From the sequence record PV357172.2: a DNA stretch of 64,000 nucleotides. The stretch is one strand, 5' to 3'. A model generated the notes under the pieces. That model was not told the origin of the DNA and ran no database searches. It saw nothing but the letters and a program-made list of their open reading frames with translations. How positions within the stretch are numbered: the stretch's first letter is position 1; every line of letters starts with the position of its first letter. Position numbers and translations under genes: made by a program. This DNA comes from a phage. Shown one piece after another: positions 1,122-43,748 of the stretch.

Positions 1122-3681
1122 CGAGAATCCTTCTCACGTTATCCAAATCTTTACATACAGCAATAAACTTATCATCCTTGTATTTGCTATGATCTGGATG
1201 CTCTTTATCCATTGCAGCTAGTTTCTTATACTCGAATTCTGCATCAAGTAATACACCCTTGACATAACGAGTATATTCATCATCATCAATACAAGCGATT
1301 GATGGATGCTGCTTCTTCATCTTACCACAGGAGTAGTCACGAGAACCTCCAGCCTCAGAATCAGAATCAATACCAATCGGACAGCCAGGAATACTGATAC
1401 CACGGTCTTTCTGAATATTACGAATCAGGATTTCATTGTATTGGTCGATCAAATCCTCACGAACAATAGCAACTACGGAGTCATGAACCAGCATAACAAT
1501 CTTCATCTCGTGTTCTAAGCCAAGAGAAATGATCTCATTATCTGCATCTACAGCACCTAAAAGGAGACTATCAGAAGAAGCAGACTGAATGATTGCGTTA
1601 AATCCAGAACGAATTTCTTCACCCTGAACGCCACGGTCTTCGGAGTGGATATTATGCAGACGACGTTTACGACCAAAGTGACTATAGATAAATCCATGAT
1701 TCTTGATCTGATCGTGGCACTTATCAATCCAACGCTTAAGCTGTGGGAATTGACCAAAGTAAGTCTCAATGTACTCTTTAGCATCTGCAACAGTACATTC
1801 AACAAACGGTTCCCCCGTTTTGGCTGCTTGTTCGAGCAATGCTTCGTTAACAGAATGTGCTACTTTAGCCGGGCCAGAACCGTACAAAATACCAAAGGTA
1901 ATTGCCTTAGCTGCCTGACGCAGAGCTGGGAACAGCTTCTTAACATCACGAGGTTCACATTGCAATTTAAATACCATGTGGGCGATGTTAGAGTGGAAGT
2001 CAGGGTATTTATCAGGTTCATTTCTCATGTTGATAAATACTTGTTGCATATTTCTATCACCAGATAGAACAGCAGCATAATAAACTTCCGCAGTTGTTAA
2101 GTCCCATGCGATTACACGGTATCCAGGTGGTGCAACTACACAACCCTTAATGATAGATTCATCACGAGGTAACTGTTGCAGGTTCAGTTTACCAGAAGAA
2201 CTCAGACGACCAGAAGTAGTCATATGCTCATGGAAGCCAGTACGAATGCAACCATCAGCATCAATGCTCAGAAGAATCTTCTCAACGTAAGTAGAGATCA
2301 GCTTAGTCAGCTTACGAATCTCTAGTAGGGTCTTAGCAATTGGATGCTGCGTAGACAATTCGTTCAGAGCTTCTGCATCTGTAGAGTCCGCTCCAGTATC
2401 TGTCAATTTACCTGTTGGAGTTAACCCAACATAATCAAACAGAAGAACACGTAGCTGCTTAACAGAGTTTGGGTTAAACGCTTCGTTCTGGTCTTTCTCT
2501 AGCTGAACGACTTCTGGATAAGTATACAGTTTCTCACGAGCTTTATTCAGATTATGGGTTAACTGGTACTGAGCTTCTTTTAAACGATCAATAGAAATAG
2601 GTACACCACGATCCTCAACACGTTGCAGGAACACGCAACCAGGCATTAGAACATCATAATACAGACTGCAAAGTTTTTCATTCTTCTCAATTTTTGGTAA
2701 GAAGAAGTTGTGCAAACGTATGGTGGCATCGGTATCTTTTGCAGCGTAAGGCCACATAATATCAAACGGAATTAAATCATAGGTGAAATCTTCTTTCTTG
2801 ATTTTATGTGCTTTGCAATAATCCTCCTTGAACTTATCTAGTTCAAAATCATAGTCACCCATATCGGTATACTTCATTGCTAGAGATTTCAAGCCATGAG
2901 TACCACGACGCTCATCTAGAACATAATGCTGCAACATTGTATCATGGAGCCTGCGTTCTTTATGTGCTTTATCAAAAGTAAGTCCCAGATGGTACTTATA
3001 AAAGTGCATATCAAACTTCAGGTTGTGAAAAACAATAGTGTGGTTTTCACTATCCAGAATTTTCTGGAGATAATATACTGCAACCTCTGTGAGACAATCA
3101 GAATCGATATATACACCCTGATATTCTTGGTGAGACATAGAAACACCAAGCAGATAACCATCTCGACAGTATAGTGCTGAGGTTTCGGAGTCAAATGCTA
3201 CAGGTCCGATAACCATATTATACACCATCTTGATATATTCTTCCGCCTCGTCAGGGTCAGTAATAGGACGGTAATCACCAGCTTTTGCAATCTTCTCACG
3301 ACCATTGATAATATCGTGGATATTCTCTACTGTTGCATCGAAAACTGGTTTCATTTCAGGTTTAAAGTGTAACTGGGCTGGGCTGATGCTCGCAATCCAG
3401 TTAGCATATCCATTATGCTCTACACGTTTACCAGTATAGTCACCAATGCCTTTCTTACCAGCAAAGTACAGGAAAGGTTCGGCACCTACCAGTATAACAA
3501 AATCATAATCATTCGGATCAAATGGGTTTTCCGGAGTCCCGATAGTAATATGCTTTTTGAGCAAACGACCGGATAACTTCTCATTACACATATGGAATAC
3601 ATCAACTTCCTCGCCGTATAGCTGGAAATGTTTATCGTAACGAGTGTTATTTAGAGCTTTATCAACTACTGCGATTTTCAA
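1114..3681 (-). CDS. DNA polymerase, family A (PolI-like)
   Basis: 855-aa ORF; motif B-like RQAAKAITFGILYG and motif C-like LVHDS; apparent TTG start 8 nt after GAGGAG. Confidence 0.8.
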   Translation of the reverse strand: MKIAVVDKALNNTRYDKHFQLYGEEVDVFHMCNEKLSGRLLKKHITIGTPENPFDPNDYDFVILVGAEPFLYFAGKKGIGDYTGKRVEHNGYANWIASISPAQLHFKPEMKPVFDATVENIHDIINGREKIAKAGDYRPITDPDEAEEYIKMVYNMVIGPVAFDSETSALYCRDGYLLGVSMSHQEYQGVYIDSDCLTEVAVYYLQKILDSENHTIVFHNLKFDMHFYKYHLGLTFDKAHKERRLHDTMLQHYVLDERRGTHGLKSLAMKYTDMGDYDFELDKFKEDYCKAHKIKKEDFTYDLIPFDIMWPYAAKDTDATIRLHNFFLPKIEKNEKLCSLYYDVLMPGCVFLQRVEDRGVPISIDRLKEAQYQLTHNLNKAREKLYTYPEVVQLEKDQNEAFNPNSVKQLRVLLFDYVGLTPTGKLTDTGADSTDAEALNELSTQHPIAKTLLEIRKLTKLISTYVEKILLSIDADGCIRTGFHEHMTTSGRLSSSGKLNLQQLPRDESIIKGCVVAPPGYRVIAWDLTTAEVYYAAVLSGDRNMQQVFINMRNEPDKYPDFHSNIAHMVFKLQCEPRDVKKLFPALRQAAKAITFGILYGSGPAKVAHSVNEALLEQAAKTGEPFVECTVADAKEYIETYFGQFPQLKRWIDKCHDQIKNHGFIYSHFGRKRRLHNIHSEDRGVQGEEIRSGFNAIIQSASSDSLLLGAVDADNEIISLGLEHEMKIVMLVHDSVVAIVREDLIDQYNEILIRNIQKDRGISIPGCPIGIDSDSEAGGSRDYSCGKMKKQHPSIACIDDDEYTRYVKGVLLDAEFEYKKLAAMDKEHPDHSKYKDDKFIAVCKDLDNVRRILGA

Positions 3682-6134: not shown

Positions 6135-6168
6135 GCAAAAAGGGGAAGGAGCATAGCCCCCTCCCCTT
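6135..6168 (-). terminator. rho-independent terminator (minus strand)
   Basis: GC-rich hairpin GGGGAGGGGG...CCTTCCCC followed by TTTTTGCATTT on minus strand, just downstream of gene ending at 6186. Confidence 0.55.
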
Positions 6169-6185: not shown

Positions 6186-6953
6186 TTATTCAGCAGCCGC
6201 AGCTTTTGCATCCAGTTTAGCACGCTTAGCGGCACCATCATAGTCCTTAGCAACCAGACCACGACGAGACAGCATAGATTTAACACCGCGCTCAGATTTA
6301 CCAGTTTTCTCAGCGATCTCAGCAACAGTCATGTTAACCAGATCCAGACCTTCTAACAGATCTTCACGAGTTTTAGCACTCGAGGTTTCCTGTACCGGCA
6401 TAGCGGCGATACGACCTTCACGAAGCAGACTCAGAGCTTTACCACGGATCTGCTTGATATTACGACCGAAGTGAGCAGCGATAGCTTCAATAGTAGCACC
6501 AGCAACAACCTGATTAACAAAATCAGTTTCTTCATCCGGAGTGAAGGAACGAACAGCAGCAGCTTTTTCAGTTGGTTTAACAGAAGCGGTCATTTCCAGA
6601 CTCAGGATCTTACCCTGTACCTGCTTAGCACCGAACTGACCACCAGCTACAGCAGCAGCGATTTCAGCATAGGTATACTGACCAGCATGAGCGTTCAGGA
6701 AATCAACCAGTTCAGCTTCCTGCTCAGGAGTCCACGGAGATTTCTGCACTTCGTTAGCTTTCTGTACTTCAAAACCTTCTTTACGCAGTTTAGAGCCAAC
6801 AGAGCGGGCAGTAACATCTTTGCCAGTTTCAGCAGCCAGTTCAGCAGCAATAGCAGCTACTTGTTCTTGAGAGATTACAGCAACACCCAGAGCAGTGGCT
6901 TTTGCTTTCAGAGACTCGGTTACACCTTCTACGTTCCAGTTCAGTTTAGACAT
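6186..6953 (-). CDS. DNA-binding protein with three HTH-like repeats
   Basis: Three internal repeats (TYAEIAAAVAGG, TIEAIAAHFGRN, TVAEIAEKTGKS); GC-rich, strongly E. coli-like codon bias suggesting high expression. Confidence 0.5.
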   Translation of the reverse strand: MSKLNWNVEGVTESLKAKATALGVAVISQEQVAAIAAELAAETGKDVTARSVGSKLRKEGFEVQKANEVQKSPWTPEQEAELVDFLNAHAGQYTYAEIAAAVAGGQFGAKQVQGKILSLEMTASVKPTEKAAAVRSFTPDEETDFVNQVVAGATIEAIAAHFGRNIKQIRGKALSLLREGRIAAMPVQETSSAKTREDLLEGLDLVNMTVAEIAEKTGKSERGVKSMLSRRGLVAKDYDGAAKRAKLDAKAAAAE

Positions 6954-7728
6954 TATTATTTTTCTCCAATAGTTCTTTAATCGACAGGATTTCTATCCCA
7001 TTCGTTTCGGCTTTCTTATAAGATGAGGAAGAACGTTTTGATTCATCCTCACAGATCAGGTATTTGACGTCTTTGGTAACGGATTTCTTAACCGTATATC
7101 CTAGACCTTCTAAATAGTTTGTTGCATCCGTTCTATTTGCAAAATCTTGCAAAGATCCGGTAATACATACCGTTATTCCGTTTGGTTGGGCTACTAGACC
7201 ATCAGTGATGATGACCTCAGCTTTAGCACCTTTAATACCAGTTGTGAATTTCCACGGTAATTCGATAACATCCTTGCCTTGTGGGGAATTTAGCCAGGCT
7301 TTATAATTTTCTCCAGCCTTGCCGTCAGCCTTCACATCATGGAAGCTAGTGCAATTTTGGGATAATTTCTTTGCTGCAACCTCTCCGATTAGAGGGATTC
7401 CTAAAGAACCGAGAACTGAACCAAAGTCAATGTCTCCGCGAACTTTAGTATTTAATTCGCTAATTAACTTAGCGGCAACCTTGCTACCCACGGCTCTAAC
7501 CAAATCTTCTTCGGTTAGGTAAAATAGTTCTGAAATCTTCGTCAGCTCCAGCTTCTCAATAGTTTTTGGACCAAAGCCCTTTAACTTCATTTTTGAACAG
7601 AAGTTCTCAATTAACTTACTTGATTGCGCTGGACAGTTGGACTTATTCCGACAAAATAATTGTCCGTTGACAAGATCTAGCTTAGAACCACAAGAGGGAC
7701 ATTGTGTTGGAATTTCGATTTTCATCAA
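6946..7728 (-). CDS. NAD-dependent DNA ligase, C-terminal subunit (Zn finger, HhH, BRCT)
   Basis: N-terminal CPSCGSKL...CRNKSNC zinc finger, HhH-like GFGPKTIEKL, BRCT-like C-terminus. Confidence 0.75.
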   Translation of the reverse strand: MMKIEIPTQCPSCGSKLDLVNGQLFCRNKSNCPAQSSKLIENFCSKMKLKGFGPKTIEKLELTKISELFYLTEEDLVRAVGSKVAAKLISELNTKVRGDIDFGSVLGSLGIPLIGEVAAKKLSQNCTSFHDVKADGKAGENYKAWLNSPQGKDVIELPWKFTTGIKGAKAEVIITDGLVAQPNGITVCITGSLQDFANRTDATNYLEGLGYTVKKSVTKDVKYLICEDESKRSSSSYKKAETNGIEILSIKELLEKNNNV

Positions 7729-7929
7729 ATTTCTTCCTTATCAATTTATATAAATATTATAGCAAGTATTTAAGCATTTAGCAACTACAATTTTAACTAA
7801 CTTTGCTTACCCTCGCCATAACTTTCTATCCCTCAACTGAATGATAATAGTATATACCTAAGCGGCGAAAATGTCAATAACCACTTTATAATTCCGATAT
7901 GGTAGATGGGTAGCAAAGGGTTACATATA

Positions 7930-8904
7930 TTAATCGTATACTCGCTCTACTATGCACGGGATTACACCACCAGCACGAATCACTCGAATCTGGCAACCGA
8001 TCTCTAGATCAAGAGAGTTAATATAATCAACGTTATTAAGAGTCGCTTTAACAATTGTAGCGTCATCAATAATTACCGGTTCGAAATATCCAACAGGAGT
8101 TACTTTACCAGAAGCCCCTACCTGCCACTCAACTTTGAGAAGAGTTGTAATTTCGCCTTCTTCATCTTGTTTAATTGCATAAGCACCGCGAGGATGTTTA
8201 TTCGTCCAACCTTCACGGAAGAATTTATTGTTGTCATTAATACGAACAACTTTACCATCCGTTGGATACCAGTTGAAGTAGTTTTTAATGTTCATTACAG
8301 TGATGAAATCTTCGTTAGCCAACCAAGACATATCATCTAAATAAGAACCTGTAATACCTACAGAATCTTCTGAACACTGAATACCATAAGCTACAAAGAT
8401 TAATCCACCTTCCGCAATACGTTCGATGAAATCATCTTCTTCTTTTAAGTTAATAGCACCTGAAGCGTAGTTACGTTTGTTTTCTACTTCTTTAGTGATA
8501 AGAACTTCACCCGTGATTTGAGTTGGTACTTTTTGGGAAATCTTTTTCGGGATGTTCAGCAATCTAACGTTGCTTGTGACATCATTCCCTAGAATACCAT
8601 TACCACGAGTTAACGCTTGAACAAACGTTCCGTCGATGTACAACAGAGAAATTGCGCAACCGTCTAGCTTATCAGTTTCTACGTCTTCAAGAGTAGTGAA
8701 GGGGGCTTTATCACCACGATCGAAGTAAACTTTTTGTAAAGAATACATACGATACAGATGTGGGATATCACCTTTCGGGCCGATAGCATCTTCCGCCGTT
8801 GGGAAACGTTTTAACAGACGGTCATATTCTTCATCAGATATTAAAGACATACCCTGATAATATGCTTCTTGACAGCGTTTAATAAAGTCTTTTACATTAG
8901 TCAT
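7930..8904 (-). CDS. NAD-dependent DNA ligase, N-terminal adenylation/OB subunit
   Basis: KxDG adenylation motif TDKLDGCAISLLY; 324-aa ORF directly upstream of the Zn-finger/BRCT subunit. Confidence 0.75.
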   Translation of the reverse strand: MTNVKDFIKRCQEAYYQGMSLISDEEYDRLLKRFPTAEDAIGPKGDIPHLYRMYSLQKVYFDRGDKAPFTTLEDVETDKLDGCAISLLYIDGTFVQALTRGNGILGNDVTSNVRLLNIPKKISQKVPTQITGEVLITKEVENKRNYASGAINLKEEDDFIERIAEGGLIFVAYGIQCSEDSVGITGSYLDDMSWLANEDFITVMNIKNYFNWYPTDGKVVRINDNNKFFREGWTNKHPRGAYAIKQDEEGEITTLLKVEWQVGASGKVTPVGYFEPVIIDDATIVKATLNNVDYINSLDLEIGCQIRVIRAGGVIPCIVERVYD

Positions 8905-9177
8905 TTATTCTGCCTCATAGTACGTGGGCTGTCTAGTGGACCCGTGCCATGTATAATTTTTGCAAAGATGCAAATATGTAGTTTTTACTAGCCTATCTGA
9001 CAACGGAGAGTATATTTCAGCTGTTAATACTTCTTTTTCGTAATGAAGTGAAATCAGCTTATACCCACTTCTAGTTTTAGTATACTTTTCTCCATTAATC
9101 TTCTCCTCCCACATAAGTATAAGAGGCTGTCCGATACATGGGAAAGGTTTAAGTGTACTTATATTTATCTTTTTCAC
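8905..9177 (-). CDS. hypothetical protein (90 aa)
   Basis: ORF track; abuts ligase subunit start; promoter-like module upstream on minus strand. Confidence 0.45.
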   Translation of the reverse strand: MKKINISTLKPFPCIGQPLILMWEEKINGEKYTKTRSGYKLISLHYEKEVLTAEIYSPLSDRLVKTTYLHLCKNYTWHGSTRQPTYYEAE

Positions 9178-9263
9178 TTTGCAACCCTCTCATTAATTTA
9201 TATAAATATTATATAACAAAACTGAGTTGAAAGCAAATACATTTATAAAGAAAAAGCCAAGAA

Positions 9264-9572
9264 CTAGGCATTCTTGGCTTTGAGTTCTTCAGCTCGTTTC
9301 TGTACTTCATGTAAAACCTCAGATTCGCTAAGAATCTGTGTAAACGCATAGAAAAGCTGTGATGTTGTTTCTAGAGTGTAAGGAAAAGAGAAGCCAGATT
9401 TCGTTGGAAACCATTCATCATTAATATCAAGAAGCCAGTAACGAATACCCATGTATAGATTCCCACGAAATTCAGATACTGTTAATCTTACTTGTTCTCC
9501 CTCCTTCTCCCAAAGTATGATGGACTGGTCATCAACGTGTCCTTCATAGTTTTGATTTACCTGTTCGCTCAT
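9264..9572 (-). CDS. hypothetical protein (102 aa)
   Basis: ORF track; compact operon context. Confidence 0.45.
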   Translation of the reverse strand: MSEQVNQNYEGHVDDQSIILWEKEGEQVRLTVSEFRGNLYMGIRYWLLDINDEWFPTKSGFSFPYTLETTSQLFYAFTQILSESEVLHEVQKRAEELKAKNA

Positions 9573-10366: not shown

Positions 10367-10472
10367 ATTTTATATTTCCTTAATTAAGAATTAAACAGAA
10401 TAGTTCTTTCAAACTATGAGAATATTATATCAAGAATTATAGGATTAAGCAACTGAAATTTTTCGGTAACTG

Positions 10473-10709
10473 CTACACATCTAGCTCAACAATCTCCCAA
10501 TCATCCGCTAGAGCTTCGTCTAGAGTTAATTCAACCTCTTCATCACTAGGCAGCAGCGTAGTATCTGAAGGCATCCACACATATTGGCGTACAGTATTGC
10601 TGTCTACATCAAATTTCAATAGTACAGTATACTCTTTATTATTTTCCCAGCTATCCCGCTGGAGATACTTTACATCTCCATCTTTAAGCAAGTCTGTTAG
10701 CTTACTCAC
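10473..10709 (-). CDS. small acidic protein
   Basis: Probable GTG start at 10709 after AAGGAAA, overlapping upstream stop; acidic C-terminus DEEVELTLDEALADDWEIVELDV. Confidence 0.4.
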   Translation of the reverse strand: MSKLTDLLKDGDVKYLQRDSWENNKEYTVLLKFDVDSNTVRQYVWMPSDTTLLPSDEEVELTLDEALADDWEIVELDV

Positions 10710-11406
10710 GGCGTTTTCCTTTTTCTTTATCAAGTTTCAGGGCAGCCTTAACAGCTTCGTTAATCAACGAAATTACTTCTTCCCGGGTCCATTTATACCC
10801 TAGAGATTTTACATCAACCCCCAGCTTTTCCAGATGTTTAACAGAGGCCAACTCGTAATTCATATAATGGACGTTCTGTTGTTTGCCTTCTGATAGGAGC
10901 CATACACGGTAACAACCAACAGGATTATCCATTGCTTTTTTGATTTCACCGATACACTGGTATCCAGGAACCCAAACAAGTTCACCAACTGCAAATTCTT
11001 CTGCTACAGCATCATCAGGAATAATTGGAGGATTCAATGGATCTACAATATCGTTCAAACGAAGCAGAGCACCATATCGTTCCAGAACAGATTTAACCAT
11101 TGCTACAGAGCGGTAATTACGATCGGCAATTTCTTCAAAAGAATCACCAGATAAATACTGCTCAATAACGTTAGCTAACTCAATACCTTCAATGAGTGTG
11201 CCACGTTTCTTTTTCTTCATTTCGGCAACTTGAATCTGGCGGTCTTGCCATTCTTCAATCATCCTTTCCATAGTTGGATTGGATGATACGCCGAGCATTT
11301 CACATGCTGCTTTCTTAGTACCACCGTTCTCCAGATGCTCTATAACTTTTTTAAAGACTTCATCCGGGATTTCATGGATATGTTTCTTTCTGCGAGAACC
11401 AGCCAT
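10702..11406 (-). CDS. putative HTH DNA-binding protein (234 aa)
   Basis: N-terminal GGTKKAACEMLGVSSNPTMERMI resembles an HTH. Confidence 0.45.
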   Translation of the reverse strand: MAGSRRKKHIHEIPDEVFKKVIEHLENGGTKKAACEMLGVSSNPTMERMIEEWQDRQIQVAEMKKKKRGTLIEGIELANVIEQYLSGDSFEEIADRNYRSVAMVKSVLERYGALLRLNDIVDPLNPPIIPDDAVAEEFAVGELVWVPGYQCIGEIKKAMDNPVGCYRVWLLSEGKQQNVHYMNYELASVKHLEKLGVDVKSLGYKWTREEVISLINEAVKAALKLDKEKGKRRE

Positions 11407-15470: not shown

Positions 15471-15923
15471 TTACTGGATTGATTCCCTACCGTATAATTG
15501 ACCTCTAAACATCTTGGCCATAGAACATGCAACCTCATAGTTATCATATGTTCCTTTAACTATACGTTTACGGTTAATAGTAAATACTACTTGCCAGTTC
15601 TTACTACCAGAAGGGTAAACATGCATTCCTTTCTTATACTTGATATTTCTTAGATTACCGGATACTGTCTGCTCTCTAAGATTTTCAATACGATCATCAC
15701 CTTTTACAGTATTCACATGATCTACTAAATCAGGTAAGTATCCGTGATGCATTAAGAAGATAGCTCTGTGTCGGAGCATAGTTCTACTCCCTAGAGAAAT
15801 ACGGTAATAACCATTTCCCGTTGAAACACAACATTCCTTGCCTGCATTTCTTCCTGTAGTTCTAAATAATTTTCCATCTTCATATCGGAAATTATCTAAA
15901 AGTTCCTGTTGTGTGAGCGACAT
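15471..15923 (-). CDS. HNH homing endonuclease
   Basis: HNH motif HHGYLPDLVDHVNTVKGDDRIENL; start set at ATG 15923 preceded by GGAGG. Confidence 0.7.
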   Translation of the reverse strand: MSLTQQELLDNFRYEDGKLFRTTGRNAGKECCVSTGNGYYRISLGSRTMLRHRAIFLMHHGYLPDLVDHVNTVKGDDRIENLREQTVSGNLRNIKYKKGMHVYPSGSKNWQVVFTINRKRIVKGTYDNYEVACSMAKMFRGQLYGRESIQ

Positions 15924-16062
15924 CTTTACCTCCAATACATATATTATTACATAATCCACCCAATTTGTCAATGACAATTTATTCATACTGTCAATTAACT
16001 GGAAAGATTATATAATAATCCGAGCCAAAATGACTCGGTAGTCAGAGTTCAGCTAATAAAAA

Positions 16063-16455
16063 TCATTCATCATTCAGACCTGGAACATAGATCCCAACAT
16101 GGTTTAACTGTTCTTTAGCTTCTTTGAGAATATCTGGAGTGTACTCCCAAATATCATCTTCCACCTGTAAAAGATGGGGCGAACAACCATCATCAGGCAT
16201 ACGACATATAGCCAAACCACGTGGATGGAACAAAGAGAAATTTAGGGCAACAATTAAACCCATAGCAGACAACTCATTCCAATCCAATTCCCATTCCCTA
16301 GCGTAGCCTGATAGGAAAACACCAATACAGGGATCGTCTATTTGCTGCTCCGGAAAAGTGAAGGAGGCTTGTCTTACCCCCAACCAACGTTGTAGCAGCT
16401 TCTCCGCACGCTTCACCAAACTAGGATCAATCTGACGCCAATATACTTGTTCCAT
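16063..16455 (-). CDS. hypothetical protein, tandem paralog A (130 aa)
   Basis: Shares PCIG...ELD...MGL..ALN..LF.P motifs with adjacent ORF. Confidence 0.5.
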   Translation of the reverse strand: MEQVYWRQIDPSLVKRAEKLLQRWLGVRQASFTFPEQQIDDPCIGVFLSGYAREWELDWNELSAMGLIVALNFSLFHPRGLAICRMPDDGCSPHLLQVEDDIWEYTPDILKEAKEQLNHVGIYVPGLNDE

Positions 16456-16464
16456 TCTGCCTCC

Positions 16465-16893
16465 TTAAGCAGTTAAATCTGGGATCATATACCCGAAACG
16501 TCGAAGTTTCTGAATCCCCTCATTTACTTCTTCCGGTGAATAAGACCAACCATAACGTTCATTAACCTGAAAACCAGGAGATTCACTAGTTTTATAGTTA
16601 ACAACTAGGCGATGCTTAGCAGGCATAAACAGCTTATAATTTAACGCAAAAACTAAGCCCATTTCATCTAACTCTTTCCAGCCTACAATCTCTTCAAGAC
16701 CCTCCTCTACCTGAACAATTAAACCAATACAGGGGGCCTCATCAATATCATCTTTAAAAGCAAAGGAGATTTCATTATTCTCACACCATATTTTCAAGGA
16801 GTTAATAGCCTCATTATACAGGCTAGCTGGGAGAGTACGCCAAAAGTTAATCAAAATTGGATTAGCTTCTTTAGAGAATACATTATTGAACAT
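16465..16893 (-). CDS. hypothetical protein, tandem paralog B (142 aa)
   Basis: Paralog of 16063-16455. Confidence 0.5.
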   Translation of the reverse strand: MFNNVFSKEANPILINFWRTLPASLYNEAINSLKIWCENNEISFAFKDDIDEAPCIGLIVQVEEGLEEIVGWKELDEMGLVFALNYKLFMPAKHRLVVNYKTSESPGFQVNERYGWSYSPEEVNEGIQKLRRFGYMIPDLTA

Positions 16894-16895
16894 AT

Positions 16896-17402
16896 TTACA
16901 CCTTAAATTGTTGTAAGGATTTACACATTTCAAGATCTGGGCTAAATTCTAGCATATAGCTAACAGCTTTTAAATCTTGAAGATTTATCCCAGTCCTACC
17001 GTTGACTATAACCGTTGGATACTGATACATCATAGCACCCGCATCATCAAGCACACACCAATGTTTGAGCTTATGCTTTTCAACGAAACGAAGAACAGAA
17101 TTACCCCTAGATAATCCACCCCCCGTAAAATCCGTTGTACCAAGAAAACGATCGATAAGACCTAATCCGGTCATAATCTGAACGTTCTCCATCTCATTTC
17201 TAACAGAGAACCAAGATGATACCCCAACAATCATTATCGGAGAAGGACGAATAAAATCCTGAAAAGCCTTGAGAAGCGGTTTGAAAACCCAGTCACTTCC
17301 AAAGAAAATCTTTTCATTATCAGGTGCATGATGGTGGGAGATGCTCGAATTGAGCACCCCATCAATATCTAGAAAAATAATTGGAGTATTACTTATTTCC
17401 AT
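16896..17402 (-). CDS. HAD-superfamily hydrolase-like protein (putative phosphatase/nucleotidase)
   Basis: HAD motif I IIFLDIDGVL near N-terminus. Confidence 0.5.
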   Translation of the reverse strand: MEISNTPIIFLDIDGVLNSSISHHHAPDNEKIFFGSDWVFKPLLKAFQDFIRPSPIMIVGVSSWFSVRNEMENVQIMTGLGLIDRFLGTTDFTGGGLSRGNSVLRFVEKHKLKHWCVLDDAGAMMYQYPTVIVNGRTGINLQDLKAVSYMLEFSPDLEMCKSLQQFKV

Positions 17403-17571
17403 TTTTGTTCCTTTCTAAGAACGTATCATACTCAACCGTATCAACATATATGACGCCATAGTCATCGGATTTATAGTCCATTTCCCATAACTCACATCGA
17501 TAGCACCAACTACCATCTGCCCATACAAATATATCATCGGGATGTGTATATACAGATTTAACTATGGACAT
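17389..17571 (-). CDS. hypothetical protein (60 aa)
   Basis: ORF track; overlaps flanking genes by 14 nt. Confidence 0.35.
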   Translation of the reverse strand: MSIVKSVYTHPDDIFVWADGSWCYRCELWEMDYKSDDYGVIYVDTVEYDTFLERNKNGNK

Positions 17572-18394
17572 ATCTGTTTACCTTGCTTCTCGACACATAA
17601 GGTCTACCCTCTAAATGAGCTTCTACACGAGCAATAAAATCAGGATCACTGAAAGCATCTACCGCACCTTTACTCCAGTAAGGGATACCACGTTCTTCCA
17701 GCTGGTACATCTCACTACGAGTCATACCTTGATAGCCCGGTTCTGCCGCTAGGCCACTATCATAGTAGTTAACAACCATAAGTTTCGCAGCAGTCAAATT
17801 AAGAACAGGAAATAATTCCCAGTAGAAGTTAATTACTTGGTTAGAGCAACCAACCACAATGATCATATCTTGACTGGTAATACCATCAAAAACATTATAC
17901 ATTTCTGCGTATGCAGGAGCATGTTCTCCAAAGAAGATTACATTAGGTTTAACCCATTTATAATCATCTGGATCAATAGAATTATACCCTACATCAATAA
18001 TCCGTTTATTGCTACTATTGTAGCTATCAGCTACAACAACCTCTTTTAAATATCCGTGAATGTGCAGAATGTCACTATGTGGAACACCAGCACGCTCAAT
18101 AAGGTCATCAACGTTGGTAGTCAAGTTTACTACTTGACCTGGGTATTGTTTATACCATTCACCAATACGCAAATGCGCAAGATTGGGTTCAACAGTTTTT
18201 AGCTCTTCACGACGCTTGTTGTAAAACATATGGGTTTTATGATAAAAATTACCACGAAAGGCATGAATATTACATACTTCTTCTAGATCATAATCATCCC
18301 ACAATGCTTTACCACTAGCAGTATCAGTACGGAAGGCTCGTACACCACTTTCAACGCTCAAACCTGCACCGCTAATAATAATTAATCTACGCAC
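17558..18394 (-). CDS. Sir2-family (sirtuin-like) NAD-binding protein
   Basis: Sirtuin motifs ISGAGLSVESGVRAFR, TTNVDDLIERAG, HIHGYL, FFGE, VVGCS; no obvious Cys4 zinc ribbon. Confidence 0.65.
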   Translation of the reverse strand: MRRLIIISGAGLSVESGVRAFRTDTASGKALWDDYDLEEVCNIHAFRGNFYHKTHMFYNKRREELKTVEPNLAHLRIGEWYKQYPGQVVNLTTNVDDLIERAGVPHSDILHIHGYLKEVVVADSYNSSNKRIIDVGYNSIDPDDYKWVKPNVIFFGEHAPAYAEMYNVFDGITSQDMIIVVGCSNQVINFYWELFPVLNLTAAKLMVVNYYDSGLAAEPGYQGMTRSEMYQLEERGIPYWSKGAVDAFSDPDFIARVEAHLEGRPYVSRSKVNRYVHS

Positions 18395-19150: not shown

Positions 19151-20977
19151 TTACTTAAGATTTAAGTGTTTTACTCTACCAAGTACTTCTTTTTGTTTCC
19201 CAGAATTGAAAGGCCTACTGCCCGGGGATCCCAGGTACCCGCAAACCCTACGTGTAACCTCTATTTCTTCAGATCCACAACTCGGACATACAAACCCACG
19301 TTCAGAGGCAACAGATTCACCCATATACCCACAGTTGAAGCACTCATCAATTGGTATATTAACACCAATATAATGACTACATTCTAGTCCCTTATCTACT
19401 ACGTATTCAAGAGCTTTATGGAACTTTTTCATTTGTGGTAGTTCCACAAACGATATATTACCACCATTAGCTATTTTGGTGAAATGAGCTTCATACTCAA
19501 ATTTAGTATCCGGAGCTACCTTCTCCCTTACGTCCAAATGATGACTATTAGTGAGATAGCCTTTATCTGTTAGCCAAGAATACTCAGGGAACCTACGTTC
19601 CAGTAGTTTATTAAAGCGATTACATAGAGACTCACTAGGAGTAGCATACAAGCTAAACCCAAGATTAGTCTCATTAGCTTTAACTTCGCAACGATTTTTT
19701 AGGTGAGTAAGAACTTCCTCTGTAAATTCAATACAGTCCCTATGAGTCTGCGGTAAACTAAACATTATTTGGCACATCTCATAGACCCCAATATACCCAA
19801 GAGATACAGAAGATCTACCCTCAAAAATTGGCCATACATACTCTTCCCTATCTAAACGCACACCAAAACCACCGTGCATATAAAGAATAGGGGCTTGTTT
19901 AGCCTTCACTTTCTTAAGTCTATCCAAGAAAAAATCATGAGCTTCAAAAGCCTCATCCACATATTTGTCCAGAATATCCCAGAAATCTTCAAAAACCCCA
20001 TCTGCCTCAGCAGCAACCATAGGTAGATTAATAGACACTACACCTAAATTATTGCGCCCTGCAATTTCTCCGGAGGGGATAGCAGATAAAAAGCTACGAC
20101 AACCCATAGGGGCTTTAAAATCACCAGTAACAGCTATAACTTTCTCATAGCTTAAATAGTCTGGGTACATACGGGTAGCAGAACACTCAAGTGCTAGCTG
20201 TTTTATATCATAGTTAGGATCGCCTGGATTTTTATTTAACCCTTCTTTAACTGAGAATACTAGTTTAGGGAAGATAGGGGTTGACTCGGCAGCACCTAAA
20301 CCTTTAATACGATTTTGGAGGATGGCTTTCTGAATCATCCTTTCCTCCCACTCCTGACCTAATCCAAAGCCAAGCGTAACAAAAGGGGTCTGCCCGTTAG
20401 AGTTAAATAATGAATTAGTTTCATACTCTAGAGCTTGGAATGCATCATAACACTCTTTTTCAGTAAGCTCAGTAGCATACACAGCAGCTTTTCTTTCATC
20501 CTTGAGCCAACGTAGCCCACGACCCAGATGTTTATTGTAAGACTTTCTGACATACGGGGCTAGAACCTCGTCGATACGATCAATAGAGGTACCACCATAC
20601 TGAGCACCAGATACTTGGGCAATAATCTGAGCAGTGATTGCACATGCAGTAGTTATGGATTTAGGAGTTTCAATATTTGCATTACCGATTTTAGTACCAT
20701 TCTTCAGCATGCCCCCCAGATCTACTAAACAACAGTTGGTGTACCCTTGTGCTCTGTAGTCCATGTCATGAATGTGTATTTTACCTAGATTATGCGCGTC
20801 TAACAGGTGTTTAGGTAATTCTTGCGATACTAAATACTTGTTAATTTCCCCAGCTAATAAGTCCCTTTGAGTATGGAACATCTCACTAGGCTTATTAGCA
20901 TTATTATGTTGTAAGTCTTTATCCGCAGTTAGAGTGAGCAGACCTTTGCAATTTTCAATTAATTCATTCTCTGTCAT
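19151..20977 (-). CDS. nrdD: anaerobic ribonucleoside-triphosphate reductase (class III)
   Basis: 608-aa ORF; C-terminal glycyl radical motif RVCGYLGS; Cys cluster CFNCGY...CPSCG. Confidence 0.85.
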   Translation of the reverse strand: MTENELIENCKGLLTLTADKDLQHNNANKPSEMFHTQRDLLAGEINKYLVSQELPKHLLDAHNLGKIHIHDMDYRAQGYTNCCLVDLGGMLKNGTKIGNANIETPKSITTACAITAQIIAQVSGAQYGGTSIDRIDEVLAPYVRKSYNKHLGRGLRWLKDERKAAVYATELTEKECYDAFQALEYETNSLFNSNGQTPFVTLGFGLGQEWEERMIQKAILQNRIKGLGAAESTPIFPKLVFSVKEGLNKNPGDPNYDIKQLALECSATRMYPDYLSYEKVIAVTGDFKAPMGCRSFLSAIPSGEIAGRNNLGVVSINLPMVAAEADGVFEDFWDILDKYVDEAFEAHDFFLDRLKKVKAKQAPILYMHGGFGVRLDREEYVWPIFEGRSSVSLGYIGVYEMCQIMFSLPQTHRDCIEFTEEVLTHLKNRCEVKANETNLGFSLYATPSESLCNRFNKLLERRFPEYSWLTDKGYLTNSHHLDVREKVAPDTKFEYEAHFTKIANGGNISFVELPQMKKFHKALEYVVDKGLECSHYIGVNIPIDECFNCGYMGESVASERGFVCPSCGSEEIEVTRRVCGYLGSPGSRPFNSGKQKEVLGRVKHLNLK

Positions 20978-21635
20978 TGATTATTTCCTCGATAAACCTT
21001 GCTACTATTTCTGGCTCAATACTAAAAAATTCTGTAGCACCATCAAAATCTTTGTACTGACAATTATATTCCTTAAACTGTAAATGGGCCTCTCTTTCAA
21101 TACGCATAGCTTTTGATCTATCTGAAAAGCTATATTCCTTAAATATTTTTAAATCATGTATGTTAGAAGAAGTTTTAATATCTCTGAGTCTATCTTTAGT
21201 TCTGCTAGACACCCCTATTTTGGTTCCCACACTACTTATTAAAATATATACGTTAGTAGGATAATTATCCTTCTCTAATAAACATATAGGACAACCAGAA
21301 TTATGATTTCTAACACTATCAAGTGTAGACTCCCATCTATGATTATTCTCACAGCTGAACATAATTTTACTCTTAGAATTGATGTATTTACCTTCCATCT
21401 TTATTCCACGAGCAGCTAAGGATTCATTTACCTCTTTAAGATCTAAAGTACGACTAGCACAATAAGGGCAACCTCTCCCACCTTTTACATTATCTACTCT
21501 AGCCTCCCAGATATGTCCATTAGAGCACTTAAATACAGCATTGGATTTAGCTGATATATACGTGCTTAGCATAATTATTCCTCTGGGAGCAAGTGTTAAG
21601 TTCACATCTTCTGTAGTTATTTTCTTTCTTACCAT
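20964..21635 (-). CDS. T5orf172/GIY-YIG-like domain protein with tandem zinc-ribbon repeats
   Basis: Two N-terminal repeats (FKCSNGHIWEARVDNVKGGRGCPYC / FSCENNHRWESTLDSVRNHNSGCPIC); C-terminal VYILISSVGTKIGVS...R...E GIY-YIG-like core. Confidence 0.5.
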   Translation of the reverse strand: MVRKKITTEDVNLTLAPRGIIMLSTYISAKSNAVFKCSNGHIWEARVDNVKGGRGCPYCASRTLDLKEVNESLAARGIKMEGKYINSKSKIMFSCENNHRWESTLDSVRNHNSGCPICLLEKDNYPTNVYILISSVGTKIGVSSRTKDRLRDIKTSSNIHDLKIFKEYSFSDRSKAMRIEREAHLQFKEYNCQYKDFDGATEFFSIEPEIVARFIEEIINDRE

Positions 21636-21953
21636 TAAATTCTCCTTAATTCACATATTATACACAATTCCACCCCATAAGTCAACTACATTTTTCTAAT
21701 ACTATTTGACTTTTGATTTTTATCAATTTTTATTGATGCTATACAGCATAATATCTTTACATATAAATAAATGATTATCTAGTATCATATTTTTACCTTT
21801 ATAAGCAAGTAAATTTTTTACTTAAAAGCAATATCATAGGTTTATTTAAAATTATACTTGCTTTTTGCTGTAAACCTTGTTATAATATATTTGTAAGTTG
21901 ATAAACAAGATCTCTTTGTTGATCCTCTGTTAGAAGCGAAGTACACTATAGGA
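21636..21953. promoter_or_regulatory. divergent promoter region between leftward and rightward gene blocks
   Basis: AT-rich 318 bp; plus-strand TTGCTT...TGTTATAAT upstream of 21963 and reverse-complement TTGCT/TATAAT elements for the minus strand. Confidence 0.55.
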
Positions 21954-28516: not shown

Positions 28517-28595
28517 TTCAAATAAAATATTACTTGCTTGATGTCTAAATTTATAATATAATATTTCCTATATGTATATTATAGGGGATTTACTT

Positions 28596-29150
28596 ATGAT
28601 TATAAAAGAAGGATGGACAAAAGAGTCCGCACGAGCTAGATTTATATACAACCCTGATACAGGGGAGATTTTTAACAGAGTAAATAGCGGACGTGCTAGA
28701 AAAGGAGAATTAGCCGGGTATATTGATAAATCTACGGGGTATGTTAGACTAGTATTATCTGGTAAAAGGATTAAAGGACATCAGCTAGCCTTCTTATATA
28801 TGGAAGGCTATATACCTGATACCATAGACCATATTAATAGAATAAAATCAGATAATAAATGGACTAATCTAAGGGAATCATCGGCTCAAGAAAATGCTAG
28901 AAATATTAGGGCAAGAAGTAAATCGGGCTATTTAGGTGTTGGTTGGTATAAGCCAACCCAAAACTGGTGTGTTTATACTAAGGATAAAGATGGAGTCCAA
29001 GTTAACGGAGGCTACTTTGCATACAAAGAACTAGAGTTAGCAGTTCAAAAGGCTAATGAACTTCGCTTACAGTTACATGGAGAAAACGCTGTTATAGAAG
29101 CTTTTGATTCCACAAAACCACTTCCCACATTAGAGGATCTTAATAAATGA
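28596..29150 (+). CDS. HNH homing endonuclease (between thyA and RNase H)
   Basis: HNH motif EGYIPDTIDHINRIKSDNKWTNL; start at ATG 28596 after AGGGGA. Confidence 0.7.
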   Translation: MIIKEGWTKESARARFIYNPDTGEIFNRVNSGRARKGELAGYIDKSTGYVRLVLSGKRIKGHQLAFLYMEGYIPDTIDHINRIKSDNKWTNLRESSAQENARNIRARSKSGYLGVGWYKPTQNWCVYTKDKDGVQVNGGYFAYKELELAVQKANELRLQLHGENAVIEAFDSTKPLPTLEDLNK

Positions 29151-33252: not shown

Positions 33253-34074
33253 ATGGGTAAATTACAAAAACAAATACTACCACATATAGATTATATTCGA
33301 GAAATTATAGAGTATAATCCTTATACTGGTAAATTATTTTATAAGCCTAATAAATACAAGAATAAAACTTGGCACACCCTATATGCTGGGAGAGAAATAT
33401 GTAGTAAGAACTCTGATGGGTATATCAGAGTTAGTTTGCTCTTAGATAATAAACCCACAATTATTTATGGACACCGAATAGCGTGGTTGCTCCATTATGG
33501 TGAAGAGCCTCCTTATATGATCGACCATATAAATACCATACCGTGGGATAACAGAATTGTTAATCTAAGAGAGACAAATTTTAAGTTAAATAGGATTAAT
33601 ACTAATAAAACCGTAGGTGTAGAACTCCTCCCCGAGGGTTTTGTGTATAGCATTACATTAGGTGGAAAGTTTTTCGTATCTCCTGGCTTCACCACTTTCG
33701 AACAAGCTAAAGGGGAAAGAGAAAAACTAGTAAATGGTTTATGTAATGCAGAAATTGGGAAGCAGACCAATATTCTAATAGACGATGTTAGAGATCTACC
33801 TGAAATGTCCATTATTTGTCGTACAGTTATAGGTGCGCTGGAACTATCAGATATGTTTAGTTTTACTGGTTCCTACCTATTTATGGACTCAGATCTAGGA
33901 GACCCAGAAGTACAAGGAAAAGACTTATTAGATTATATACTCTTTTTAGGTCAAAGACCTTTGAAAGTAGTTCTAGTAACATCCAACCCTGTTGACGCAG
34001 AGTACATGAGAGGTACTCTTACGTCTTATGGTTATCGAGAAAATCCCAATAGGTTAGAATATGACCTATTTTAA
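33253..34074 (+). CDS. HNH endonuclease with C-terminal extension
   Basis: HNH motif YGHRIAWLLHYGEEPPYMIDHINTIPWDNRIVNL in N-terminal half. Confidence 0.65.
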   Translation: MGKLQKQILPHIDYIREIIEYNPYTGKLFYKPNKYKNKTWHTLYAGREICSKNSDGYIRVSLLLDNKPTIIYGHRIAWLLHYGEEPPYMIDHINTIPWDNRIVNLRETNFKLNRINTNKTVGVELLPEGFVYSITLGGKFFVSPGFTTFEQAKGEREKLVNGLCNAEIGKQTNILIDDVRDLPEMSIICRTVIGALELSDMFSFTGSYLFMDSDLGDPEVQGKDLLDYILFLGQRPLKVVLVTSNPVDAEYMRGTLTSYGYRENPNRLEYDLF

Positions 34075-34776: not shown

Positions 34777-35218
34777 GGAAGAGAATATTTTAGATGTTTT
34801 GCGTAGAGCTTTGCAGGATTCTAAGTTTAATGGTTCTGATAAAGAAGTCGCTAAAAGCTATCAGACCATAATCGGGGATCTTCAGCGTATTGATAAAGAT
34901 TTCATCACTTCTGAACAATTTGTGTCTTATCTCAAAGCTCAACTAAAAAGCATTAACCAGATGAAAGCTAAACTTCATGGTCAAGATCTTGATAGTTATA
35001 GCTTGCAGTCCGCTCAGTATGAATACATTCTAAATAAGTGGTTGCAGGAGTATCTGCCTCCTCAGTTATCTGATACTGAGATTCGTAAATACTTTGCAGA
35101 ATTAGTTAAGCTAAACCCTGGAATTACAAAAGGTATGCTGATGAAAGCGATTAAGGAAGAATTTCCTGGGCGTTATGATGGTGGTACTGCTGCTCAGATT
35201 GCTGGCGAATTTAATTAA
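34775..35218 (+). CDS. hypothetical protein (147 aa)
   Basis: ORF track; ATGA start-stop overlap with preceding small ORF. Confidence 0.5.
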   Translation: MEENILDVLRRALQDSKFNGSDKEVAKSYQTIIGDLQRIDKDFITSEQFVSYLKAQLKSINQMKAKLHGQDLDSYSLQSAQYEYILNKWLQEYLPPQLSDTEIRKYFAELVKLNPGITKGMLMKAIKEEFPGRYDGGTAAQIAGEFN

Positions 35219-35478
35219 AAATTTACTTGCTAAATGCTTATAAATTCTGTATAATATATTCATAAATTAGGGAACAGCGAGCCGATTACGCTGAGTGCAG
35301 AATCCCAACCGGAGCGCATTGAATAGAGTCGGTGGGTTAGTTGTAAAACTAGTACACAGGGGGCGGCAATCCCGGTTAGTGGCTAGAACGTGTAAAATGA
35401 GGCGTCTGAAACCTCTCCCCTAAACTCTTCTCTAATTTATAAATAGTGGGGTGTGGAAATCACTTATGTAGTAACACT

Positions 35479-37299: not shown

Positions 37300-37350
37300 A
37301 GTTAAAAAATTCGATTGCTTGAATGCTAAATTCTCTGTATAATATATTTA
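37300..37350 (+). promoter_or_regulatory. sigma70-like strong early promoter
   Basis: TTGCTT at 37315-37320, 17-nt spacer, TGTATAAT ending at 37343. Confidence 0.6.
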
Positions 37351-37373
37351 TAAATTTGAGAGAGGAATCAAAT

Positions 37374-38429: not shown

Positions 38430-38430
38430 T

Positions 38431-40389: not shown

Positions 40390-40478
40390 CTCCTCCAAGC
40401 AGAAATTTTAAAAATGTACTTGCTTTTTACTTAAGATTTCTGCTATAATAGTTATATAAGTTGATGAGAGGAATCAGA

Positions 40479-43460: not shown

Positions 43461-43748
43461 CCAATTTCAAGAAAAACTCAGTTGCTTGATGCTTAATTTC
43501 TTGTTATAATATTTATATAAATTGATGAGGAGAAATCCTCATCATAGTTCACTAAGGTATTAGCTCGACCTAGGACTGGCTGCCAAAAAGCACGATCCCT
43601 ACGATTTGGGAGAAGTTCTAGATTAGTCCACTAGATTCAGCGGCAACTGAATAGTGTATCGGTTTTGCGAGATGACGCGGTTCCTTCCGCTCGAAGCGAA
43701 GGTGCTGTAGTTACGCCGAGCTAATAGCCTTAGTAAACTAAGGAATTT

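What the first reader, a model, noticed from the sequence alone, without database searches (positions are those of the whole stretch)
6946..8904. NAD-dependent DNA ligase split into two genes with a 200-bp promoter-containing spacer
The adenylation/OB half and the Zn-finger/HhH/BRCT half are separate ORFs, separated by an AT-rich spacer (7729-7929) that carries a minus-strand promoter module. This implies a two-subunit ligase; the split may be a scar of a past endonuclease or intron insertion. Being NAD-dependent, the ligase ties into the NAD salvage genes.
Basis: partly seen in the sequence, partly recalled or inferred. Interest (0 to 1): 0.5.

Follow-up and report, generated by a model that had tools for sequence, protein, structure and literature searches.

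The report
Split NAD ligase of T5-like phage

Summary
On the minus strand, ligA (7930-8904; domain Ia, adenylation and OB domains) and ligB (6946-7725; Zn finger, HhH, BRCT) are separate genes. A 204-nt spacer of 31% G+C lies between them. It carries two sigma-70 promoters and a Shine-Dalgarno sequence for ligB.

The window is a T5-like phage (Tequintavirus). The T5 RefSeq record annotates the same two genes as ligA and ligB, and the same spacer as promoters P-K28b and P-K28a. The window spacer is 100% identical to T5 over 198 nt.

The split has been credited to the 2005 T5 genome paper. PDB entries 9hu3 and 9i5i hold both subunits of a Providencia-phage homologue.

The break falls in the OB/Zn linker, at E. 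coli LigA residues ~393/400. All 80 related viral loci examined, down to 39% identity, keep the split. Nearly all have a promoter-like site 29-47 nt before ligB.

No intron, intein or read-through is involved. Origin by endonuclease insertion is unproven, but two Salmonella phages carry a GIY-YIG gene at exactly this junction. NadR and PnuC genes do exist in the window, but T5 has the split ligase without them.

Verdict: already known, low interest.

The parts
7930..8904 (-). ligA: ligase subunit A (324 aa), comprising domain Ia, the nucleotidyltransferase domain and the OB fold
   Evidence: Domain and family matches: Pfam PF01653 and PF03120; phrog_3359 at 6e-168 over the full length; PDB 9hu3_A at 4.8e-104. 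Residue mapping to E. coli LigA: K79=K115 (KLDG), R100=R136, E133=E173, D216=D285, R221=K290, K245=K314. Comparison with T5: 87.6% amino-acid identity, dN/dS 0.082/0.656.
7726..7929 (-). ligA-ligB spacer, 204 nt, 30.9% G+C, with no terminator
   Evidence: Sequence; G+C. No terminator-like site and no Rfam family. 100% identical to T5 over 198 nt and to phage MET_P1_179_112 over 204 nt. In the ligA reading frame there are six stops between the last ligA codon and the ligB ATG, counting ligA's own.
7849..7877 (-). Upstream promoter, equivalent to T5 P-K28b: TTGACA-17-TATACT
   Evidence: Scan score 11 of 12. Maps onto the T5 feature 'promoter P-K 28b' (T5 66366-66440). The hexamers are kept in Providencia phage PSTCR5 (TTGACG-17-TATAAT), although the surrounding sequence has diverged.
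7756..7784 (-). ligB-proximal promoter, equivalent to T5 P-K28a: TTGCTA-17-TATAAT with an extended -10 (TGc)
   Evidence: Found in the scan. Maps onto the T5 feature 'promoter P-K 28a' (66459-66533). The same promoter module has about 20 similar copies in the window. In nearly all of 54 distinct relatives' gaps (50 by reading the table), a TTGnnn-17-TATAAT-like site ends 29-47 nt before ligB.
7733..7739 (-). Shine-Dalgarno sequence AAGGAAG for ligB, 7 nt before ATG 7725
   Evidence: Read directly from the sequence. The same start is annotated in T5 and MET_P1_179_112.
6946..7725 (-). ligB: ligase subunit B (259 aa), comprising a Cys4 zinc finger, HhH and BRCT
   Evidence: Pfam BRCT, HHH_2; phrog_3498 at 1.3e-136; PDB 9hu3_B 'DNA ligase subunit B' at 4.4e-80; residues 3-122 align to E. 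coli LigA 402-529. C9, C12, C25 and C31 are invariant in alignment A2. 98.5% amino-acid identity to T5.
6186..6953 (-). D5 DNA-binding protein gene. It overlaps the ligB stop by 8 nt and lies in the same transcription unit.
   Evidence: ORF list; T5 annotation of D5.
6140..6168 (-). Intrinsic terminator after D5, closing the ligB-D5 unit
   Evidence: 13-pair stem with 8 G-C pairs, followed by a T run.
8905..9177 (-). orf90: a 90-aa gene of unknown function abutting the ligA start (TAA followed directly by ATG). Absent from T5.
   Evidence: ORF list; phrog_35018, unknown function; no Pfam match. Present in MET_P1_179_112 and absent from T5.
9208..9236 (-). T5-type promoter (TTGCTT-17-TATAAT) upstream of orf90-ligA
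   Evidence: Sequence. This stretch is 100% identical to T5, where a promoter is annotated just upstream of ligA.

Best explanation
This is the T5-type heterodimeric NAD+-dependent DNA ligase.

Proposed mechanism:
- LigA (Ia-NTase-OB) reacts with NAD+ to form the lysyl-AMP intermediate on K79.
- LigB (Zn-HhH-BRCT) supplies the DNA-clamping and nick-binding half. A truncated single-chain NAD+ ligase lacking that half is inactive in ligation.
- The two polypeptides associate non-covalently, through the native OB/Zn-HhH interfaces and/or on nicked DNA. They seal Okazaki fragments and nicks during phage replication.

Gene organisation:
- The gene is broken exactly at the OB/Zn linker. Each half has its own translation start.
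- The gap is a transcription-unit boundary. ligA is transcribed with orf90 from an upstream early promoter.
- With no terminator in between, read-through plus the tandem promoters P-K28b and P-K28a drive ligB-D5 up to the terminator at 6168-6140.

Shown here: the gene anatomy, domain content, catalytic residues, identity to the T5 annotation, clade-wide conservation of the split and of a promoter-like site before ligB, and the existence of a solved structure containing both subunits of a homologue.

Inferred: complex formation and activity for this particular phage, promoter activity, and an excess of LigB over LigA.
For: - Domains and tiling of the full-length profile.
- Split point: ligA 213-321 aligns to E. 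coli LigA 282-390, and ligB 3-122 to 402-529.
- Catalytic residues are present (alignments A2 and A3).
- Both chains of a homologue are in PDB 9hu3 and 9i5i. Chain B is 100% identical to the Providencia phage PSTCR5 ligB.
- T5 annotates ligA, ligB and promoters P-K28b/a in the spacer. The spacer is 100% identical to T5.
- In 80 of 80 IMG/VR loci, and in one MAG contig, ligA lies directly upstream of ligB. The two are never fused, down to 39% identity.
- A promoter-like site is conserved 29-47 nt before ligB.
- Purifying selection acts on ligA, dN/dS about 0.13.
- An Ia-NTase-OB fragment of LigN adenylates with NAD+ but cannot ligate (PMC1684257).
Against: - No biochemical data exist for this phage. 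No paper describing 9hu3/9i5i was found in the library, so I cannot say whether the deposited complex is active or DNA-bound.
- The motif IV lysine (E. coli K290) is arginine (R221) in all five clade members aligned. The effect of this is untested.
- Neither half reaches the curated NCBIfam LigA cut-off on its own.
- The promoter consensus scan is not enriched over shuffles for the region as a whole.
Confidence: 0.88

Rival explanations
1. The split is a sequencing or assembly error, or a decaying pseudogene of a single-chain ligA.
For: None beyond the bare fact of two ORFs.
Against: - The same arrangement occurs in 473 phage records and in 80 of 80 viral loci.
- ligB has its own SD, ATG and promoters.
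- ligA shows dN/dS of about 0.13, and ligB is 98.5% identical in amino acids to T5.
- Both subunits of a homologue have been crystallised.
Confidence: 0.01
2. The halves are rejoined into one chain by an intron, an intein (cis or split), ribosomal bypass or stop-codon read-through.
For: In this window the two ORFs happen to be in the same frame.
Against: - No Rfam family matches in the spacer at E<=10.
- In the ligA frame there are six stops between the last ligA codon and the ligB ATG, counting ligA's own.
- The T5 gap is 202 nt, so the frames differ there. Gap lengths run from 70 to 1359 nt.
- LigA ends and LigB begins at native LigA residues, with no extra intein-like residues.
- The PDB entries hold two separate chains.
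Confidence: 0.02
3. The fission was caused by, and is a scar of, a mobile element (a homing endonuclease gene or other insert) landing in the OB/Zn linker of an ancestral single-chain gene.
For: - SP3 and vB_Sen_SG_WM_RUS_R2 carry a 213-aa GIY-YIG gene that starts on the ligA stop codon.
- In SP3, the last 216 nt of ligA are 69-77% identical to T5, against 87-98% for the rest of the gene.
- Vibrio-infecting relatives have 1-2 small ORFs in the gap.
- The genome is rich in HNH and GIY-YIG-type genes.
Against: - The endonuclease insert was found in only 2 phages (3 records) and looks secondary.
- Most lineages, including the most distant ones, have a short gap of 70-124 nt that holds only a promoter.
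- No remnant of an endonuclease ORF is present in the 204-nt spacer.
- The ancestral event cannot be dated or reconstructed from these data.
Confidence: 0.2
4. LigB has a second, LigA-independent role, for example as a nick- or DNA-binding BRCT scaffold made in excess with D5. The split exists to uncouple its expression from that of LigA.
For: - ligB has two dedicated strong-consensus promoters in addition to read-through, and it is translationally coupled to D5.
- A promoter-like site before ligB is conserved across the clade.
- ligA and ligB have different histories in this phage: ligA is 84% identical in DNA to relatives, ligB 97-100%.
Against: - ligA and ligB co-occur strictly.
- T5-type promoters are very dense in these genomes, with about 20 similar modules in the window. 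A promoter in any intergenic gap is therefore expected.
- There is no direct evidence of a second function.
Confidence: 0.1

Closest known systems
Phage T5 ligA (T5.116) / ligB (T5.117) with promoters P-K28b and P-K28a (NC_005859, 65364-67317)
   Same: Same gene pair, order, strand and split point. The spacer is 100% identical over 198 nt. ligB is 98.5% identical in amino acids. Downstream D5 is the same.
   Different: - ligA is only 87.6% identical in amino acids (84% in DNA), because of a divergent patch at about 8100-8900.
- The gap is 204 nt here against 202 nt in T5.
- An extra 90-aa gene lies between the upstream promoter and ligA.
Two-subunit NAD+ DNA ligase in PDB 9hu3 / 9i5i (chain A 339 aa, chain B 248 aa; chain B is identical to Providencia phage PSTCR5, genus Priunavirus)
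   Same: Same two-chain architecture. The window's LigA matches chain A at E=4.8e-104 and LigB matches chain B at E=4.4e-80. The gene gap is 192 nt and keeps both promoter hexamer pairs.
   Different: About 54-56% amino-acid identity. Different phage genus and host. I could not read the entry's title or any paper for it.
Single-chain bacterial LigA (E. coli, PDB 2owo; TIGR00575)
   Same: Same domain order (Ia-NTase-OB-Zn-HhH-BRCT) and the same catalytic motifs.
   Different: - One polypeptide in bacteria, two here. About six linker residues (E. coli ~394-399) are missing.
- The NTase domain is about 30 residues shorter.
- The motif IV lysine is arginine.
- Each half scores below the curated equivalog cut-off.
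Free-standing GIY-YIG homing endonuclease genes in phage intergenic regions (T4 seg-type; comparison from my own knowledge)
   Same: The SP3 insert sits between two genes and overlaps the upstream stop. It is flanked by a divergent tract in the adjacent ligA 3' end.
   Different: Not present in this window. Endonuclease activity and target site are untested.

Membership tests
NAD+-dependent DNA ligase (LigA family) | Motif I KxDG with the adenylated lysine | tested here: met
   K79-L-D-G aligns to E. coli K115-L-D-G. It is invariant in alignment A3.
NAD+-dependent DNA ligase (LigA family) | N-terminal domain Ia with the NMN-binding residues that confer NAD+ specificity | tested here: met
   AYYQGMSLISDEEYDRL aligns with T. 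filiformis RYYVLADPEISDAEYDRL. Y15, Y16, Y27 and D28 are invariant in A3. The HMM score for this segment is weak. The role of these residues rests on Sriskanda & Shuman 2002, as cited in PMC9503650.
NAD+-dependent DNA ligase (LigA family) | NTase motifs III, IV and V, plus the OB fold | tested here: met
   E133=E173, D216=D285, K245=K314. The motif IV lysine K290 is replaced by R221, which is invariant in the clade. OB fold: PF03120 at 2.9e-22.
NAD+-dependent DNA ligase (LigA family) | Cys4 zinc finger, HhH and BRCT C-terminal modules | tested here: met
   C9, C12, C25 and C31 are invariant. BRCT scores above its cut-off, HHH_2 just below (24.4 against 27). LigB residues 3-251 align to T. filiformis LigA 400-653.
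NAD+-dependent DNA ligase (LigA family) | All domains on one polypeptide (equivalog models TIGR00575 / NF005932) | tested here: not met
   There are two genes. TIGR00575 scores are 175 and 110 bits against a cut-off of 444.
NAD+-dependent DNA ligase (LigA family) | NAD+-dependent nick sealing | not testable with these tools
   Needs an enzyme assay.
T5-type split ligase LigA/LigB (phrog_3359 + phrog_3498) | Full-length match of each product to the subunit-specific family | tested here: met
   phrog_3359 at 6e-168 (residues 1-324 on profile 1-325). phrog_3498 at 1.3e-136 (residues 1-258 on profile 1-255).
T5-type split ligase LigA/LigB (phrog_3359 + phrog_3498) | Adjacent same-strand genes, ligA then ligB, broken at the OB/Zn linker | tested here: met
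   The same arrangement is seen in 80 of 80 related loci.
T5-type split ligase LigA/LigB (phrog_3359 + phrog_3498) | The two polypeptides form one enzyme | not testable with these tools
   Inferred from both chains being present in PDB 9hu3 and 9i5i. Not tested for this phage.
T5 early promoters P-K28b / P-K28a | Sequence identity with the annotated T5 promoter features, in the same position | tested here: met
   T5 features at 66366-66440 and 66459-66533. The spacer is 100% identical over 198 nt.
T5 early promoters P-K28b / P-K28a | Transcription initiation by E. coli RNA polymerase | not testable with these tools
   Needs 5'-end mapping. The names in the T5 record imply earlier experimental mapping. 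That reading rests on my own knowledge and was not verified here (one search found nothing).
Group I/II intron or intein | Conserved RNA core, or a continuous ORF with intein blocks | tested here: not met
   No Rfam match at E<=10. In the ligA frame, six stops lie between the last ligA codon and the ligB ATG. Gaps are as short as 70 nt. There are no extra residues at the junction.

The most novel reading that the evidence does not exclude
The split is maintained across the whole clade because it places ligB at the head of a separately and strongly promoted unit with D5. LigB (Zn-HhH-BRCT) would then be made in excess of LigA and would have a second, ligase-independent role in DNA or nick binding, or in recruitment. 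One example would be at the site-specific nicks of T5-type genomes.
Probability: 0.1. Interest if true: 0.5.

Novelty: already known. Interest (0 to 1): 0.12.

Why it matters
There is little new here. The split T5 ligase has been in the literature since 2005, is annotated in hundreds of genomes, and has a homologue with both subunits in the PDB.

Three modest points come out of this check:
- The fission, together with a promoter-like site just before ligB, is conserved down to about 40% identity in uncultivated viruses. It is therefore an ancient and stable architecture rather than a recent accident.
- The junction is occasionally occupied by a GIY-YIG endonuclease gene.
- In this phage the catalytic half (ligA) has a different evolutionary history from ligB and the spacer.

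A naturally split LigA could be a useful model for how the NAD+ ligase clamp assembles on DNA.

Tried and rejected
- Rfam search of 6800-9100 at E<=10. It returned only chance-level hits, none of them in the spacer.
- Literature searches for the PDB codes, for PSTCR5, for heterodimeric or split ligase, and for K28a/K28b. None found a paper on the structure or on the promoters. One search was badly specified and wasted.
- Single-sequence AlphaFold2 model of LigB, intended for pulling the PDB entry description through a fold search. Mean pLDDT was 34.7, which is unusable, so no fold search was run.
- An 8-codon mini-ORF (MARVSKVS) with an SD-like GAGGGA downstream of P-K28b. It is not conserved in Providencia- or Pectobacterium-phage-type relatives and was dropped.
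- The search for homologous proteins and the search of protein representatives were deliberately not used. The viral-contig and genome scans already answered the distribution question.
- Pfam on the small ORFs in the Vibrio-phage gaps. There was one crAss001_48-related hit and no endonuclease.
Full report
**What is there**

On the minus strand, the ORF listing gives two ORFs: 7930..8904 (324 aa) and 6946..7728 (260 aa from a TTG).
- Pfam places the NAD-ligase adenylation domain and the OB domain in the first ORF. It places BRCT, plus a sub-threshold HhH match, in the second.
- The minus-strand sequence shows AAGGAAG (7739-7733) 7 nt before ATG 7725. That is the start annotated in T5. The spacer is therefore 7726-7929, 204 nt, with 30.9% G+C against 38.6% and 39.4% in the two genes.
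- The consensus scan finds two minus-strand sigma-70 sites in the spacer: TTGACA-17-TATACT (7877..7849) and TTGCTA-17-TATAAT with TGc before the -10 (7784..7756). It finds no terminator-like site after ligA.
- The scan as a whole is not enriched over shuffles (8 sites against 10.2 expected). Consensus matching by itself therefore proves nothing.

**Identity of the locus**

The region matches 473 phage records at 80-93% identity. [quoted passage not shown]
- The T5 RefSeq record annotates ligA (T5.116) and ligB (T5.117). Between them it annotates two regulatory features named 'promoter P-K 28b' and 'promoter P-K 28a'.
- The window's spacer is 100% identical to T5 over 198 nt. The two scan hits fall inside those two features.
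- The P-K28a-type module has about 20 similar copies across the window. It is the standard T5 early promoter type.
[quoted passage not shown] PMC3632103 lists the ligA and ligB subunits.

**Solved structure of a homologue**

The two window proteins hit two different chains of the same two PDB entries, 9hu3 and 9i5i:
- chain A, 'DNA ligase (NAD(+))', 339 aa, E=4.8e-104
- chain B, 'DNA ligase subunit B', 248 aa, E=4.4e-80

Chain B is 100% identical to the ligB product of Providencia phage PSTCR5 (Priunavirus). In that phage ligA and ligB are 192 nt apart. I found no paper for these entries in the library.

**Where the break is**

- ligA residues 213-321 align to E. coli LigA (2owo) 282-390. ligB residues 3-122 align to 402-529.
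- LigA therefore ends at about E. coli residue 393 and LigB starts at about 400. That is the linker between the OB fold and the zinc finger.
- Against the full-length phage profile phrog_3869, the halves cover positions 9-381 and 388-654 of 656.
- No extra residues are present at either end, so there is no intein.
- The catalytic residues are in place: K79=K115 (KLDG), R100=R136, E133=E173, D216=D285 and K245=K314.
- The motif IV lysine (K290) is an arginine, R221, in all five clade members aligned.
- The four zinc-finger cysteines are invariant.

**Not rejoined**

- In the ligA frame there are six stops between the last ligA codon and the ligB ATG, counting ligA's own.
- The window's gap is 204 nt, so the two genes are in the same frame. 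T5's gap is 202 nt, so there they are not.
- Rfam gives nothing in the spacer at E<=10.
- In relatives the gap can be as short as 70 nt.

**How widespread**

A scan of IMG/VR with a LigB alignment returned 257 relatives. In all 80 loci kept, with LigB identity from 100% down to 39%, a ligA homologue lies directly upstream on the same strand. It is never fused.

| Group | Gap length (nt) |
|---|---|
| T5-likes | 202 |
| Other enterobacterial genera | 189-199 |
| Salmonella phage SP3 | 794 |
| Vibrio-infecting genera | 683-1359 |
| Environmental contigs (most) | 70-124 |

- Annotated Vibrio phages carry one or two small ORFs in the gap. These gave no informative Pfam hits, apart from one crAss001_48-related match.
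- In nearly all of 54 distinct gaps (50 by reading the table), the best TTGnnn-17-TATAAT-like site ends 29-47 nt upstream of ligB.
- Each match taken singly is often unremarkable in AT-rich DNA; the median shuffle fraction was 0.07. The constant position across lineages of about 40% identity is a phylogenetic footprint.
- A scan of 185,579 species' genomes found a single hit. It is a 3.2-kb MAG contig with the same split and promoter.
- A jumbo phage, N1M2, has an ordinary single-chain gene of 657 aa.

**Transcription layout** (inferred from sequence and the T5 annotation)

Read along the minus strand:
1. terminator-like hairpin, 9281..9253
2. TTGCTT-17-TATAAT, 9236..9208
3. orf90, starting at GTG 9177
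4. ligA, with its ATG directly after the orf90 stop
5. P-K28b
6. P-K28a
7. ligB
8. D5, overlapping ligB by 8 nt
9. strong hairpin terminator, 6168..6140

ligB-D5 therefore receives read-through transcription plus two dedicated promoters.

**Mechanism**

PMC1684257 shows that a LigN fragment with only Ia, NTase and OB adenylates normally with NAD+ but cannot ligate. The authors could not express the C-terminal half to attempt reconstitution.

Three further lines point the same way: the strict co-occurrence of ligA and ligB, purifying selection on ligA (dN/dS about 0.13), and the two-chain PDB entries. The best reading is a non-covalent heterodimer. LigA would carry the chemistry, and LigB would carry the clamp and nick-binding functions.

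**Origin of the split**

- In Salmonella phages SP3 and vB_Sen_SG_WM_RUS_R2, a 213-aa GIY-YIG gene starts on the ligA stop codon and leaves both promoters intact.
- The last 216 nt of SP3 ligA are 69-77% identical to T5, against 87-98% for the rest of the gene. This is the pattern expected beside an active homing endonuclease.
- The insert was found in only two phages (three records). Most lineages, including the most distant ones sampled, have a short gap with only a promoter. It therefore looks like secondary use of an intergenic site.

**NAD salvage**

- The window does encode a NadR-like protein at 37323-38429. Its NF005988 score is 250 bits against a cut-off of 201, and it has NMN adenylyltransferase and ribosylnicotinamide kinase domains.
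- It also encodes a PnuC-like nicotinamide riboside transporter at 38416-39108. TIGR01528 scores 118 bits against a cut-off of 42.
- There is a SIR2-family gene at 17558-18394.
- The nadR-pnuC pair matched 266 phage records, against 473 for the ligase region, and it is not annotated in T5.
- The ligase therefore exists without the salvage module. A functional link is plausible but remains inference.

**Side observation on ligA**

- ligB and the spacer are 97-100% identical in DNA to T5 and MET_P1_179_112. ligA is only 84% identical.
- The divergence is confined to about 8100-8900, the NTase domain, where identity is 73-86% apart from a conserved island of about 92% at 8500-8599. The OB-encoding end is 94-99% identical.
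- No record in the phage collection exceeds about 88% over ligA plus orf90.
- The patch is under purifying selection. It looks like a recombinant allele from an unsampled lineage.

**Verdict**

The main interpretation, a two-subunit ligase with a promoter-bearing spacer, is correct and already known. The origin story is unproven. Novelty: already known. Interest: low.

Noticed in passing
window 8100-8900 (ligA, NTase-domain part): This is a mosaic patch. It is 73-86% identical in DNA to T5 and MET_P1_179_112, apart from a conserved island of about 92% at 8500-8599. Flanking DNA (ligB, the spacer, the OB-encoding end of ligA, and the upstream promoter) is 94-100% identical. No phage record exceeds about 88% over ligA plus orf90. 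dN/dS is about 0.13.
   Followed up: partly
window 37323-39108 (+): A NadR-like gene (NMN adenylyltransferase plus ribosylnicotinamide kinase, without the N-terminal HTH) is followed by a PnuC-like nicotinamide riboside transporter gene. The pair matched 266 T5-like phage records and is not annotated in T5.
   Followed up: partly
window 8905-9177 (-): A 90-aa gene (phrog_35018, unknown function, no Pfam match) lies between the upstream promoter and ligA. Its stop directly abuts the ligA ATG. It is present in MET_P1_179_112 and many relatives but absent from T5.
   Followed up: partly
L003 (Salmonella phage SP3, NC_048001) 2737-3378; also PQ002169: A 213-aa GIY-YIG gene lies between ligA and the promoter spacer. 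[quoted passage not shown] The adjacent 216 nt of ligA are 69-77% identical to T5, against 87-98% for the rest of the gene.
   Followed up: partly
window, about 20 sites (e.g. 43480-43536, 21842-21910, 35205-35268, 40408-40468, 10421-10462): These are copies of the T5-type early promoter module, 75-90% similar to the P-K28a region over 25-88 nt. They occur on both strands, presumably following the direction of transcription.
   Followed up: no
window 10400-10700: A short stretch is only 46-85% identical to both T5 and MET_P1_179_112, amid flanks of 93-100%. It overlaps the 86-aa ORF at 10473-10733.
   Followed up: no
window 15471-18394 (-): This is a cluster of genes: an HNH endonuclease gene (15471-15986), two DUF7415 genes, a HAD_SAK_2 gene (16896-17402) that related records label 'Sir2', and a true SIR2-family gene (17558-18394).
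   Followed up: no
window 33253-34074 (+), 20964-21635 (-), 28572-29150 (+), 43929-44513 (+), 41258-41839 (+): These are further mobile-endonuclease-type genes: HNH fused to a cREC_REC domain, a T5orf172/DUF4379 protein, two more HNH_3 proteins and a NUMOD4 protein.
   Followed up: no
LigA residue R221 (window about 8242-8244): The motif IV lysine of bacterial LigA (E. coli K290) is arginine in all five aligned members of the split-ligase clade.
   Followed up: no
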